32,000 nucleotides of DNA from contig NZ_JBBYXJ010000001.1 of the NCBI RefSeq assembly GCF_039655775.1, forward strand, positions 1,427,208 through 1,459,207, written 5' to 3'. The position numbers were made by a program, and so were the translations under genes. Below, piece after piece: positions 14,057-16,132 of this stretch (the stretch's first letter is position 1; each line of letters starts with the position of its first letter). The stretch is from Iodidimonas sp. SYSU 1G8. Its GTDB lineage: Bacteria; Pseudomonadota; Alphaproteobacteria; SMXS01. The notes beneath the pieces are model-generated. The model was given only the letters and a program-made list of their open reading frames with translations. It had not been told where the DNA came from and did no database searches.

Positions 14057-16132
14057 TCATGGCATCTCGAATATGTCGACCTTAGTTTCGAGGCAACGGC
14101 GCAAGGCAAGATCGTTGCTGCCGATCGAATACCAACCTTCCGGGCGTTGATAAAAATCGAGACCACGCCCAATCTTCACGATCCAGCCGTTATCGACACG
14201 GATTTCCCGGTCGTGGAGGTTCTCGTTCAGCTCTATCGTCAGCAGGACATCAATTTCCAGCAGACTCTGCTTCAGTTCCTCCAGCTTCTCGTTCATGGCG
14301 GCTAGGTCCGTCTTATCATCGTAGCTAGTGACCAGCTTGATGTGACGCACGGTCGGCGCCTTCACGACGGCTTCGCAGAAACGAACAAAATTCGTGATCT
14401 GGTGCGGCAATCTGATGTACGGGTCTTCTATCATCAAAGCCTTTGCGCCGCGGAGATAGGGGCCGATGATGCTGTCGTACGTATGGCCGGTATCGCCATA
14501 GACGATCGTGAAGTGCTGTTCTTGGGGCTCGCACTCACTTTGACCCACGGCCACTTCGGTGGGCGCATCTATAGGCGGCGCGTCCCTGGCCGGTTCAGCC
14601 GCCTCAGGCTGTTCGATAGGCTCGGCTTGCAACCGGCGGCGGGCGGGTTCGAGCGTTGCATAGGCGCCAACGGACTCCGGGCAGCGAACAACGACTTCAG
14701 TGCCTTTGCTATCGATATAGGAGAGCTCGATCTGGGCAAATTCGTCGTCCGGCTTGCGCTTGTTCATCTGCTCCTTGATGCGGCGTCGGCATTCGACGGC
14801 ATAGGCGACGTATTCCTCGAACTCCTCGTCGCTTGGCGGGTCCACCGGGTGCAAAATCTTCAGGAAGGCGCACAGGGTCTTCTTAATGCCCTTCTCGTCG
14901 CGCCCCTCCACGGCCTTGCCCAGCTTCACACGCTTGCTGACCTCCTCGTAGCGGTTGCTGTGCTTCAGCTGATAGTGGAAGGCCTCTGCCAGGTAATCGG
15001 TGATCAGCCCGAAGCGGCCGGTTAGGTACGCGCTGCTGTTCTTCGGCATCTCCCAGCCGGGAAGATAGCAGGCGAAACGGTCCATGATGGCGAGATCGAA
15101 CTGCGGCGGCAGCGGCAGGAAGAGGTCGTAATCCGTGGACTTTACGATCTGTTCGATGGACTGGTCGATATTGCCCACGAAGGCCATGCTCGCGTTAGCG
15201 ATCACCTCCACGCCGCGGGAGAAGCGACCGTTCGCCATGAAGTCCTTCATGATCTGGATCGTATCGGGATCCTTGATCTTGATCCCACCGACCTCGTCGA
15301 AGGCGACCGTGTCCCAGAACCCGACCAGACCGATCTTATGCCGGGCGTTGTTGTAGAACAGGATCGATTTGGTTGCCTGGCCGCCGCTGATCAGCGTGGA
15401 GTAGGGTGAAAACTCGCTGAAGAAGTAGGATTTGCCGGTTCCCCTGGGCCCCAGTTCGATGAAGTTGAAGTTCGCCTCCACCAGCGGGGCGAGACGGGCG
15501 ATGAAATGGAATTTCAGGCGTTTCGAGAGTTTGGATGGCTCCAAGCCAACGGACCGCAGCACGCAATCCAGCCACTCGTCTCGGGTCAACTTGGAGCGCG
15601 CTTCGCCGTAAGCGGAGAAGTCGAAGCGGCTGAGCTGGATCGGCCGTAGATCTTCGACATAGAACGCATGATTGTCGCCGTCGATGTCGTTGTGGGCAAT
15701 CACCACCTCGGCCCAAATGCCGCCTTCCAGCAACCGGTCGGTATCGCGATAGAAGCGCTCGCCGATGGCGATGCGCTGCGATGCGAAGTTCTCGAGCGAG
15801 GCCCAGTGCCGGCGCTCCTTCTCGACATAGCGCACATGTACCTTGTCGATGAACTTGTGCTTGCCGGTCATCGCCACACGGGACTGCGCCGCATTGGCTT
15901 CGTCGGGCCGCACATAGTTTTCATGCAACGTCGCCAGCACGGCTTCCATGCCGGCCTGGATCTCTGCTGGATCATTGCTCGCGCAATAGCGAGCCAGCAG
16001 GAACTCCAGCACGAAAGTCGGGATATTCGTGCCCTTCTTGATCCGGTGCAGCAGGTCCTTGCGAACGACCTTACCTTCGAACACGTCATTCAGCTTGCGG
16101 TCGAGGTCGTCCATTTCCGGCTCAGACTGCAT
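14057..16132 (-). CDS. brxL: BREX type 1 BrxL-like AAA+ protein, variant with a C-terminal MIT_C/PLD-fold domain instead of the Lon-protease-like domain (691 aa)
   Basis: Start ATG 16132 overlaps the pglZ stop by 11 nt. The N-terminus [43 protein letters not shown] is BrxL-like. Other features: Walker A [10 protein letters not shown] (nt 15428-15451), Walker B-like [10 protein letters not shown] and MANGRFSRG. The C-terminal 150 aa carry IEDPYIR...[22 protein letters not shown]... Confidence 0.85.
   Translation of the reverse strand: [691 protein letters not shown]

What the first reader, a model, noticed from the sequence alone, without database searches (positions are those of the whole stretch)
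14060..14653. BrxL AAA+ core fused to an MITD1-type (MIT_C) PLD-fold domain in place of the Lon-protease-like domain
The first ~490 residues are a normal BrxL N-domain plus AAA+ core. Canonical type 1 BrxL then carries a Lon-protease-like C-terminal domain. Here the core is instead followed by a Pro/Glu/Ala-rich linker ([32 protein letters not shown], nt ~14516-14653). After the linker comes a ~150-aa domain (nt 14060-14515): ...[42 protein letters not shown]...[59 protein letters not shown]. From memory, this is almost motif-for-motif the C-terminal PLD-fold domain of eukaryotic MITD1 ([48 protein letters not shown]; Pfam MIT_C). The bacterial copy keeps an H-x-R-x4-D string (HDREIRVD), which is an HKD-like motif with K replaced by R. 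Phosphodiesterase/nuclease activity and pure nucleic-acid or membrane binding are therefore both conceivable. The BREX restriction mechanism is unresolved, so a natural module swap in the candidate effector subunit is informative and, to my knowledge, uncharacterised.
Basis: partly seen in the sequence, partly recalled or inferred. Interest (0 to 1): 0.8.

Follow-up and report, generated by a model that had tools for sequence, protein, structure and literature searches.

The report
BrxL with MIT_C (PLD-fold) tail

Summary
Window 14057-16159 (-) encodes a 700-aa BrxL (691 aa as NCBI annotates it; Iodidimonas sp. SYSU 1G8). It has BrxL_N, a BrxL AAA+ ATPase, a 49-aa Ala/Glu/Pro-rich linker and a full-length Pfam MIT_C domain (E 5e-50). 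There is no Lon_C hit. The tail is 43-45% identical to human MITD1, and its model superposes on MITD1 at 1.3 A. The next fold matches are PLD1, PLD2 and PLD3. The HDREIRVD string is present. H649 is invariant and R651 nearly so across very diverse MIT_C domains.

It is not an artefact and it is not new. 74 of 80 sampled species genomes carry the same fusion directly after pglZ. PADLOC has a full-length model of it. Li et al. (NAR 2025) mention it. A 2026 NAR survey counts it in 1030 of 2913 type-1 BREX taxa and calls it a "BrxL-HKD endoDNase" with an HRD motif.

No experiment exists. My best mechanistic reading is a flexibly tethered phosphodiesterase that needs to dimerise and acts on DNA held by the BrxL ring (about 45%). 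Three rivals remain open: a non-catalytic ring-dimerisation module, a membrane or lipid function as in MITD1, and a regulatory ligand sensor. Novelty: already known. Interest: low to moderate.

The parts
14057..16159 (-). brxL gene. The ORF is 700 aa from the first ATG. Alternative starts are M10 (nt 16132, giving the 691-aa NCBI product) and M16 (nt 16114, 685 aa). The stop codon is 14057-14059.
   Evidence: NCBIfam TIGR02688 'BREX system Lon protease-like protein BrxL' scores 467.8 bits against a cut-off of 329.3.
15698..16084 (-). BrxL_N domain (residues 26-154)
   Evidence: Pfam PF20442, 3e-42. It aligns to 8EMC.
14726..15664 (-). BrxL AAA+ ATPase domain (residues 166-478). Walker A GPRGTGKS is at nt 15428-15451 and Walker B VAFDEV at nt 15290-15307.
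   Evidence: Pfam PF13337, 9.4e-118. Both motifs are intact in the sequence.
14516..14662 (-). Linker (residues 500-548), low-complexity and rich in Ala, Glu and Pro
   Evidence: In 123 BrxL-MIT_C proteins the linker is 45-63 aa (median 53). Its sequence is hypervariable and rich in A/P/E/S/T; only the initial ATLEPxRRRL is conserved.
14060..14515 (-). MIT_C / PLD-fold C-terminal domain (residues 549-700; Pfam match 558-697 = nt 14069-14488)
   Evidence: Pfam PF16565, 5.1e-50. MITD1 2.5e-36. AF2 model pLDDT 89.6. Foldseek MITD1 E 9e-22, rmsd 1.3 A; PLD1, PLD2 and PLD3 at 3e-5 to 1e-4.
14192..14215 (-). HDREIRVD (residues 649-656), the HKD-like H-x-R-x4-D string at the start of strand beta5
   Evidence: H649 is kept in 100 of 101 domains, D650 in 96 and R651 in all 101. 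D656 is D in only 61 (N in 22, S in 15). H649 is invariant even in BrxL MIT_C domains only 28-35% identical to this one; R651 is Cys in one of those five. The only hhalign register places it on Nuc QHDKVIIVDN, at E 0.06.
14156..14170 (-). GRGLD loop (residues 664-668), which follows strand beta6 at the place of the GSxN part of the HKD motif
   Evidence: Conservation over 101 domains (%): G 93, R 96, G 100, L 92, D 92. RGLD is invariant in the divergent set.
14411..14425 (-). DPYIR (residues 579-583), the conserved acidic residue directly after strand beta2
   Evidence: D579 is D or E in 100 of 101 domains. DPYIR is invariant in the divergent set. Strand positions are from the model. It matches the 'conserved D/E after beta2' described in PMC12065111.
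16122..18650 (-). pglZ, immediately upstream. Its end overlaps the first possible brxL start.
   Evidence: PADLOC PDLC02561 matches 1-840 of 840. Pfam PglZ. PglZ lies directly upstream of BrxL-MIT_C in 66 of 69 related loci.
18647..29778 (-). The rest of the BREX type-1 operon. BrxE-family 29239-29778; brxA 28457-29242; brxB within 27901-28551; brxC within 24258-28115; pglX N-half 22353-24254; pglX C-half 20455-22356; GmrSD/BrxU-like type IV restriction gene 18647-20692.

Best explanation
This is an ordinary member of the large BrxL-MIT_C subfamily of type-1 BREX, which PMC12839542 calls 'BrxL-HKD'. Shown: the protein has the normal DNA-ring-forming part of BrxL (N-domain plus AAA+ ATPase with intact Walker A and B motifs). 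It then has a roughly 50-residue disordered acidic tether and a single PLD-fold domain of the MITD1 type. That domain carries a variant HKD signature: DPYIR ... H-D-R-x4-D ... G-R-G-L-D. Inferred: a single-HKD PLD domain can only form an active site as a pair, as in Nuc, NucT and Zucchini. I therefore propose that MIT_C is a phosphodiesterase activated by proximity or dimerisation. When BrxL subunits assemble into a hexamer, or a tail-to-tail double hexamer, on DNA that the rest of BREX has marked as unmethylated, the tethered MIT_C domains would pair. The His649 residues of a pair would act on the phosphodiester backbone through a covalent phospho-histidine intermediate, as in other PLD enzymes. 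Arg651, Arg665, Arg583 and Arg687 would hold the phosphate. The result would be nicking or cutting of the DNA held by the ring. In this reading it is a second nuclease beside PglZ. Confidence by step: identity and architecture about 0.97; catalytic phosphodiesterase about 0.55; DNA as the substrate about 0.45. The overall figure given is that of the full mechanism.
For: Architecture and homology. Conservation typical of an active or ligand site: in 101 MIT_C domains from 50%-identity clusters, H649, D650, R651, Q587, N590, T611, R665, G666, D668, D683, R687 and T692 are kept in at least 90%, and D579 is D or E in 99%. H649, DPYIR, Q587, N590, T611 and RGLD remain invariant in BrxL MIT_C domains only 28-35% identical to this one. 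The secondary-structure register matches the HKD hairpin: H-D-R sits at the start of beta5, followed by a turn, beta6 and then the Gly-rich loop. The one hhalign register puts HDR...D on Nuc HDK...D. MIT_C always lies at or near the C-terminus, behind a low-complexity linker. Its N-terminal partners are recruitment or oligomerisation modules: BrxL AAA+, FHA, S1, dynamin-like GTPase and single-pass receptor-like proteins. That is the pattern of an effector domain. BrxL encircles dsDNA (PMC10164562). Two comparative-genomics papers reached the same reading (PMC12065111; PMC12839542).
Against: No MIT_C domain has been shown to be catalytic. The only demonstrated activities of the MITD1 domain are homodimerisation (PMC3496609) and membrane binding (Hadders 2012 as summarised in PMC6015221). 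Human MITD1 keeps all the 'catalytic' residues. The canonical K, S and N of HxK(x)4D(x)6GSxN are all replaced (R; GRGLD). R651 is Cys in one BrxL. Sequence profiles do not link MIT_C to HKD nucleases significantly: the HMM search of the PDB finds only MITD1, and hhalign gives E 0.06, probability about 1%. Foldseek TM-scores to the PLD enzymes are only 0.4-0.5. The Lon-like domain that it replaces is non-catalytic, mediates ring-ring contacts and lies far from the DNA in the pore. Whether two MIT_C domains pair with their HDR motifs facing each other was not tested here.
Confidence: 0.45

Rival explanations
1. Non-catalytic assembly module. MIT_C only replaces the structural job of the Lon-like CTD. 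It homodimerises and so couples two BrxL rings tail to tail, or pairs neighbouring subunits, and modulates the ATPase. The conserved polar residues would serve the dimer interface or the fold.
For: In Acinetobacter BrxL the CTD mediates tail-to-tail ring dimerisation, lacks protease residues, is far from the DNA, and a CTD point mutant (Q661W) changes ATPase activity and DNA affinity (PMC10164562). [quoted passage not shown] No catalysis is known for any MIT_C.
Against: A pure dimerisation role seldom keeps about a dozen His/Asp/Arg/Gln/Asn residues nearly invariant between proteins that are 28-45% identical and range from bacteria to humans. A hypervariable, flexible tether of about 50 residues is a poor way to couple two rings rigidly. 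MIT_C is also attached to partners that have no ring to stack, such as FHA, S1 and TM receptors.
Confidence: 0.25
2. Membrane or lipid module. As in MITD1, MIT_C binds acidic phospholipid membranes, or hydrolyses a phospholipid. It would place the BrxL ring at the inner membrane where phage DNA enters, or damage the membrane as an abortive response.
For: Membrane binding is the demonstrated property of the MITD1 PLD-like domain and is needed for abscission (PMC6015221; PMC11962514). MIT_C is fused to dynamin-like GTPases (P0205, P0224, P0185) and lies just inside the membrane in single-pass proteins (P0252, P0178). The next-best fold matches after MITD1 are lipid PLDs (PLD1 and PLD2) and PLD3 (deposited as a 5'-3' exonuclease).
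Against: I found no report that BREX acts at the membrane. BrxL is a DNA-ring protein. A membrane-binding domain would be redundant on a protein that already has a TM helix. S1 RNA-binding and BrxL partners point to nucleic acid.
Confidence: 0.15
3. Regulatory ligand sensor. The conserved HDR/RGLD pocket binds, without cleaving, a phosphate-bearing ligand such as a nucleotide, a DNA end or a modified base, and gates the BrxL ATPase.
For: The pocket-like set of conserved Arg, His and Asp residues. The departure from the canonical catalytic K/S/N. The precedent of a regulatory effect of the CTD on ATPase activity in Lon-type BrxL.
Against: There is no direct evidence. Retention of the nucleophile His in essentially all members is more typical of catalysis. 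No signalling-nucleotide synthase gene was identified among the genes I scanned in this operon.
Confidence: 0.1
4. Artefact. The MIT_C tail was joined to brxL by a frameshift, misassembly or gene-calling error.
For: None. A few relatives do show rearranged or truncated copies (L002, L025, L028, P0058).
Against: The ORF is continuous. The identical protein is in NCBI. The same three-domain protein occurs in 74 of 80 species loci. All 120 best full-length homologues carry the three Pfam domains. PADLOC has a full-length model.
Confidence: 0.01

Closest known systems
BrxL-'HKD endoDNase' variants of type-1 BREX (PMC12839542, NAR 2026; first noted in PMC12065111, NAR 2025, example WP_019470419.1)
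   Same: The same three-domain architecture, the same HRD (K-to-R) motif and the same position as last gene after pglZ. The window protein is simply one of these.
   Different: Nothing of substance. I add five points: the conserved-length hypervariable tether; the wider invariant residue set (DPYIR, Q, N, T, RGLD, R); two sequence clades of BrxL MIT_C; the set of non-BrxL partner domains; and the weak profile-level support for the HKD register. Those papers call the domain a DNase without an experiment.
Acinetobacter sp. BrxL (PDB 8EMC/8EMH; PMC10164562)
   Same: The N-domain and AAA+ core align over residues 17-488 (E 2.8e-126). The operon position is the same. By homology, DNA-dependent ring assembly is presumed to be the same.
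   Different: Its C-terminal domain is Lon/RadA-like, non-catalytic and mediates ring-ring contacts. Here that domain is absent (TIGR02653 matches only positions 2-485 of 675 and scores below its cut-off) and is replaced by a linker plus MIT_C.
Human MITD1 C-terminal domain (Pfam MIT_C; PDB 4A5Z, 2YMB)
   Same: 43-45% identity over about 150 residues, rmsd 1.3 A, and all conserved polar residues shared. In both proteins the domain lies at the C-terminus.
   Different: The N-terminal partner is an ESCRT-III-binding MIT domain, not an AAA+ ring. Its known roles are dimerisation and membrane binding in cytokinesis. No link to DNA is known.
Single-HKD PLD-superfamily nucleases (Nuc of pKM101/R46 1BYR, NucT 6EHI, Zucchini/PLD6)
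   Same: The model's next-best fold matches after MITD1 are two-domain PLD-superfamily enzymes (PLD1, PLD2, PLD3); the single-HKD nucleases themselves were not listed among the matches. There is one HKD-like hairpin per domain, so a dimer would be needed for one active site.
   Different: The motif is HxR(x)4[DNS](x)7GRGLD instead of HxK(x)4D(x)6GSxN. Profile similarity is not significant. Activity has not been shown.
Menshen NsnC C-terminal PB-PLD1 effector domain (PMC12065111)
   Different: It belongs to a different defence system with a different partner protein. I did not examine it here.

Membership tests
BrxL (BREX type-1 AAA+ subunit) | BrxL_N domain and BrxL-type AAA+ ATPase domain with Walker A and B | tested here: met
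   Pfam PF20442 3e-42 and PF13337 9.4e-118. NCBIfam TIGR02688 scores 467.8 against a cut-off of 329.3. 8EMC E 2.8e-126. GPRGTGKS and VAFDEV are present.
BrxL (BREX type-1 AAA+ subunit) | Last gene of a brxA-brxB-brxC-pglX-pglZ-brxL operon | tested here: met
   All six core genes lie on the minus strand at 14057-29242, with brxL directly after pglZ.
BrxL, Lon-related subtype (TIGR02653 / PADLOC PDLC02506) | Lon/RadA-like C-terminal domain | tested here: not met
   TIGR02653 matches only positions 2-485 of 675 and scores 555.8 against a cut-off of 628.25. PDLC02506 matches only 4-490 of 680. No Pfam Lon_C hit.
BrxL, MIT_C subtype (PADLOC PDLC02508; 'BrxL-HKD' of PMC12839542) | Full-length match including the C-terminal PLD-fold domain | tested here: met
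   PDLC02508 matches 1-694 of 698, 913 bits. The same model fits five divergent plasmid BrxL-MIT_C proteins.
Pfam MIT_C (PF16565) | Profile match above the gathering score over the whole domain | tested here: met
   169.5 bits against a cut-off of 25, covering profile 1-141 of 142.
Pfam MIT_C (PF16565) | Same fold as the MITD1 C-terminal domain | tested here: met
   AF2 model pLDDT 89.6. Foldseek 4A5Z E 9e-22, TM 0.86/0.92, rmsd 1.3 A.
Pfam MIT_C (PF16565) | Homodimerisation and membrane binding, the known activities of MITD1 | not testable with these tools
   Known only for MITD1.
PLD superfamily (HKD phosphodiesterases) | PLD fold | tested here: met
   After MITD1, the best matches are PLD1 6U8Z (3e-5), PLD2 7SVP (7e-5), PLD3 8V5T (1e-4), vaccinia F13 and Streptomyces PLD. 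TM-scores are only 0.4-0.5.
PLD superfamily (HKD phosphodiesterases) | HxK(x)4D(x)6GSxN motif | tested here: not met
   The sequence is H-D-R-E-I-R-V-D-(x7)-G-R-G-L-D. His is kept, Lys is replaced by Arg, and GSxN by GRGLD. It is a variant motif, not the canonical one.
PLD superfamily (HKD phosphodiesterases) | Significant sequence-profile similarity to HKD enzymes | tested here: inconclusive
   The HMM search of the PDB finds only MITD1. hhalign against Nuc, PLD6 and NucT gives E 0.06 and probability about 1%, though with HDR aligned on HDK.
PLD superfamily (HKD phosphodiesterases) | Phosphodiesterase activity through a phospho-histidine intermediate at a two-motif active site | not testable with these tools
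   This needs biochemistry or at least a multimer model.

The most novel reading that the evidence does not exclude
MIT_C is not a DNase. It would be a membrane- or phospholipid-directed module, binding or hydrolysing lipid as the MITD1 domain binds membranes. In about a third of type-1 BREX systems it would tether the DNA-loaded BrxL ring to the inner membrane at the site of phage DNA entry, or trigger membrane damage. The eukaryotic MITD1 domain would then be a direct descendant of this bacterial immune module. Human MITD1 is 45% identical to this BrxL tail, closer than the other BrxL MIT_C clade is (28-35%).
Probability: 0.15. Interest if true: 0.6.

Novelty: already known. Interest (0 to 1): 0.25.

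Why it matters
How BREX actually stops phage is still unresolved. BrxL is needed for restriction but not for methylation, and in the studied Lon-type proteins its C-terminal domain is catalytically dead. A natural variant carries a possibly active PLD-type phosphodiesterase on a flexible tether, and it occurs in about a third of type-1 systems. That gives a clean genetic handle: point mutants of H649, R651, R665 and D579, a tail deletion, and swaps with the Lon-like tail. These would ask whether BrxL delivers a nuclease to phage DNA. The same experiments would address whether human MITD1, an interferon-inducible antiviral and cytokinesis factor that keeps every conserved residue, is an unrecognised enzyme. 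Both ideas are already in print (PMC12065111, PMC12839542). This window adds an example, not a discovery.

Tried and rejected
- Full-length AF2 without an alignment gave pLDDT 35 and was unusable. It cost one of the two structure jobs, so no full-length or dimer model could be made.
- The diverse MIT_C alignment A1 was too variable for the genome scan. The scan was repeated with the closer set A2, so it samples only the window-type clade.
- The MIT_C profile against PDB sequences found no HKD nuclease.
- hhalign against Nuc alone and against a five-sequence Nuc/PLD6/NucT/Zucchini alignment stayed at E about 0.06. The HKD register is therefore suggestive only.
- Hadders et al. 2012, the MITD1 structure paper, is not held. 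What it says about catalytic residues and the dimer interface could not be checked; only second-hand summaries were available.
- No MIT_C match in the phage collection.
- No promoter-like or terminator-like site between brxL and the next gene.
- I first read MIT_C at the end of PKD- and repeat-rich proteins as a secreted polymorphic toxin. I rejected this after seeing a TM helix between the extracellular repeats and MIT_C, which places the domain in the cytoplasm.
- Short 'MIT_C-only' proteins among the homologues are mostly contig-end fragments or remnants of brxL, for example P0058 beside a Qat system. They are not a separate stand-alone family.
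Full report
**What is in the sequence**

The finding lies in a single continuous ORF on the minus strand, 14057-16159. 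It is 700 aa from the first ATG. NCBI annotates the identical protein from Iodidimonas sp. SYSU 1G8 as 'BREX system Lon protease-like protein BrxL', in 691-aa and 685-aa versions that start at M10 and M16.

- **Domains.** Pfam gives three domains and nothing else: BrxL_N (26-154, 3e-42), BrxL_ATPase (166-478, 9.4e-118) and MIT_C (558-697, profile 1-141 of 142, 5.1e-50). There is no Lon_C hit.
- **Family models.** NCBIfam TIGR02688, which models only the N-domain and ATPase, passes its cut-off. The Lon-type model TIGR02653 matches only positions 2-485 of 675 and falls below its cut-off.
- **Solved structures.** Residues 17-488 match Acinetobacter BrxL 8EMC (2.8e-126). Residues 552-698 match human MITD1 4A5Z/2YMB (2.5e-36).
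- **ATPase motifs.** Walker A (GPRGTGKS) and Walker B (VAFDEV) are intact.
- **Linker.** Between core and tail lie 49 residues (500-548, nt 14516-14662) made mostly of Ala, Glu, Pro and Gln.

The observation and its coordinates are therefore correct.

**Surroundings**

The gene closes a complete type-1 BREX operon on the same strand. The gene order is:

1. BrxE-family gene
2. brxA
3. brxB
4. brxC
5. pglX, split into two 633-aa ORFs
6. a GmrSD/BrxU-like type IV restriction gene
7. pglZ
8. brxL

Downstream lie a 1047-aa protein with no family match and a 2085-aa DruE-like helicase. The whole stretch is a defence island.

**Not an artefact, and not rare**

- PADLOC model PDLC02508 matches the protein end to end (913 bits). 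It fits divergent plasmid-borne BrxL-MIT_C proteins even better.
- All 120 best full-length homologues (78-83% identical; Alpha- and Gammaproteobacteria among those that carry an organism name) have the same three Pfam domains.
- A scan of one genome per species with two strict peptide patterns found 359 genomes.
- In the 80 loci kept, 74 have MIT_C fused to a full BrxL core. In 66 of the 69 loci with enough flank, pglZ lies directly upstream.
- Plasmid records add brxL genes from Actinomycetota and Bacteroidota. Their MIT_C tails are only 28-35% identical to this one but still score 2e-35 to 9e-45 on Pfam MIT_C.
- No phage record carries the domain.

**Already described**

Li et al. [quoted passage not shown] They note a conserved D/E after beta2 and an HDR motif before beta5, and suggest that MITD1 and BrxL may both be enzymes.

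The BREX survey PMC12839542 reports that in 1030 of 2913 BrxL-bearing type-1 BREX taxa the Lon-like domain is replaced by an 'HKD-endoDNase'. It describes a Lys-to-Arg 'HRD' motif, shows an AF3 model, and proposes that the domain degrades invading DNA alongside PglZ.

My literature searches found no experimental test. Its novelty claim holds only in the experimental sense.

**The domain itself**

*Fold.* With an alignment of 121 sequences, the C-terminal 167 residues fold confidently (pLDDT 89.6, pTM 0.84). Foldseek places the model on MITD1 (E 9e-22, TM 0.86-0.92, rmsd 1.3 A, 43% identity). The next matches are PLD1, PLD2, PLD3, vaccinia F13 and Streptomyces PLD (E 3e-5 to 1e-2, TM 0.4-0.5). 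The PLD fold is confirmed.

*Conservation.* I aligned 101 MIT_C domains taken from clusters at 50% identity. The following residues are kept in at least 90%: I552, G558, Y561, Q587, N590, C595, L609, T611, L633, H649, D650, R651 (100%), G658, W659, G664, R665, G666 (100%), L667, D668, D683, R687, C689 and T692. D579 is D or E in 99%. D656, the 'D' of HxRx4D, is D in only 60%, N in 22% and S in 15%.

In the five very divergent BrxL tails plus human MITD1, the invariant set shrinks to G558, D579-P580-Y581-I582-R583, Q587, N590, K600, T611, H649, I653, G658-W659, R665-G666-L667-D668 and R687. R651 is Cys in one protein and D650 is Ala in two.

Such a set of polar residues, kept from Actinobacteria to humans, points to an active or ligand-binding site rather than to fold alone.

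*Register with the HKD motif.* In the model, H-D-R opens strand beta5. A turn at D656-N-G follows, then beta6, then the GRGLD loop. This is the layout of the HKD hairpin.

The canonical motif itself is not met: Lys is replaced by Arg and GSxN by GRGLD. Profile methods do not link MIT_C to HKD nucleases with any significance. The HMM search of the PDB finds only MITD1. hhalign gives E 0.06, although its one alignment puts [10 protein letters not shown] on Nuc QHDKVIIVDN.

**The tether and the partners**

In 123 BrxL-MIT_C proteins the linker is 45-63 residues long (median 53). Its sequence is hypervariable and rich in A, P, E, S and T. Only a short ATLEPxRRRL stretch at its start is conserved. 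Length is conserved but sequence is not, which is what a flexible tether would show.

A library-wide search with the domain found 1263 clusters at E up to 1e-3. Outside BrxL, MIT_C again sits at or near the C-terminus behind a low-complexity linker. Its partners are:

- FHA (P0127)
- two S1 domains (P0201)
- dynamin-like GTPases (P0205, P0224, P0185)
- single-pass membrane proteins with a signal peptide, extracellular PKD or Listeria-Bacteroides repeats, a TM helix and a cytoplasmic MIT_C (P0252, P0178)
- BrxL with an extra Schlafen/AlbA_2 domain after MIT_C (P0188)
- several N-terminal regions with no Pfam match

The recognisable partners are modules that recruit or oligomerise.

**How it most likely works**

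*Shown.* The BrxL core is the part that, in the Acinetobacter protein, forms heptamers or DNA-bound hexamers. These stack tail to tail through the C-terminal domains. Those domains are non-catalytic and lie at the wide equator of the chamber, away from the DNA (PMC10164562). Here the core is intact and the tail is a single PLD-fold domain on a tether.

*Inferred.* Single-HKD PLD enzymes form one active site from two domains. This is established for Nuc, NucT and Zucchini. MIT_C of MITD1 homodimerises (PMC3496609). I therefore favour a dimerisation-activated phosphodiesterase. Ring assembly on target DNA would raise the local concentration of tethered MIT_C domains. Pairs would form an H649/R651/R665 site, and the DNA held by the ring would be nicked or cut.

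My estimates are about 0.55 that the domain is catalytic and about 0.45 that DNA is the substrate.

*Rivals.*
- A purely structural dimerisation or regulatory module that takes over the ring-coupling role of the Lon-like domain (0.25).
- A membrane- or lipid-directed function as in MITD1 (0.15). This would also suit the dynamin and TM-protein fusions.
- A non-hydrolytic ligand sensor (0.10).
- An artefact, which is excluded.

None of these can be separated without a multimer model or biochemistry.

**Verdict**

The feature is real and correctly read. It belongs to a known, common and computationally described subfamily. Novelty is 'already known'. Interest is modest (0.25) and rests on the fact that the proposed nuclease activity, and by extension any enzymatic activity of human MITD1, remains untested.

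Noticed in passing
window 20455-24254 (-): pglX is split into two 633-aa ORFs (22353-24254 and 20455-22356) that overlap by 4 nt. PADLOC has separate models for each half (PDLC02526/02527 and PDLC02532). Among related BrxL-MIT_C loci the split form (37) outnumbers the fused form (18), so it is a conserved natural split and not a local frameshift.
   Followed up: partly
window 18647-20692 (-): A GmrSD-family (BrxU-like) type IV restriction gene (GmrSD_N plus GmrSD_C) is inserted between pglX and pglZ. A full-length copy sits at the same place in 13 of 59 related loci. Other relatives have a gap of about 1.8 kb there, with no match to the window's BREX proteins. The pglX-pglZ junction looks like a variable insertion slot.
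   Followed up: partly
window 29239-29778 (-): A BrxE-family gene (NCBIfam NF033447, 6.9e-40) lies directly upstream of brxA in a type-1 operon. BrxE was defined for BREX type 6. A BrxE match also precedes brxA in locus L026.
   Followed up: no
window 4428-13699 (-): A 2085-aa DruE-like helicase (PADLOC DruE1 4e-164; DEAD, Helicase_C and MrfA Zn-binding domains) is preceded by a 1047-aa protein with no Pfam, NCBIfam or PADLOC match. The two ORFs overlap by 130 nt. The pair resembles a Druantia type III pair (DruH-DruE) with an unrecognisable partner. A DruE match also follows BREX in locus L056.
   Followed up: no
window 2915-4065 (-): A LuxR-type response regulator (Response_reg plus GerE) and an HTH_3 protein (weak CapH / control-protein matches) lie at the edge of the defence island.
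   Followed up: no
proteins P0252, P0178, P0205, P0224, P0185, P0127, P0201, P0188: Outside BrxL, MIT_C is a promiscuous module at or near the C-terminus, always behind a low-complexity linker. Partners are single-pass receptor-like proteins (signal peptide, PKD or Listeria-Bacteroides repeats, TM helix, cytoplasmic MIT_C), dynamin-like GTPases, FHA, tandem S1, and a BrxL-MIT_C-Schlafen/AlbA_2 protein of 858 aa. Their genomic contexts could not be looked up with the tools allowed.
   Followed up: partly
alignment A4; loci L085-L089: BrxL MIT_C tails fall into at least two sequence clades. Human MITD1 is 45% identical to the window-type clade. The other BrxL clade (Rhodococcus, Arthrobacter, Methylomonas and Mesorhizobium plasmids) is only 28-35% identical to the window type. 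This suggests that the eukaryotic domain derives from the window-type bacterial lineage. It was not tested by phylogeny.
   Followed up: partly
L024 and L026 (Tepidimonas fonticaldi, same contig NZ_VJOO01000006.1, 76920-110537); L023 and L041 (Alcanivorax sp. S71-1-4): Two complete BREX-1 loci, each ending in BrxL-MIT_C, lie back to back on one Tepidimonas contig. One Alcanivorax genome carries two such loci on different contigs.
   Followed up: no
L035, L002, L025, L028; P0058 in L081-L083: Odd copies. L035 has a full BrxL-MIT_C with no recognisable BREX gene in 8.3 kb upstream. L002 has one ORF joining a PglX C-terminal piece to BrxL-MIT_C, with no pglZ. L025, L028 and Alcaligenes P0058 are truncated MIT_C-bearing remnants, the last one beside a Qat (KAP NTPase-QatB-QatC-TatD) system.
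   Followed up: partly
window 27901-28551 and 24258-28115 (-): The mechanical ORFs of brxB and brxC are longer than the family models. The PADLOC BrxB model starts at ORF residue 26 and the BrxC model at residue 84. The real starts are therefore probably further in, and the apparent brxB/brxC and brxA/brxB overlaps are smaller than the ORF list suggests.
   Followed up: no
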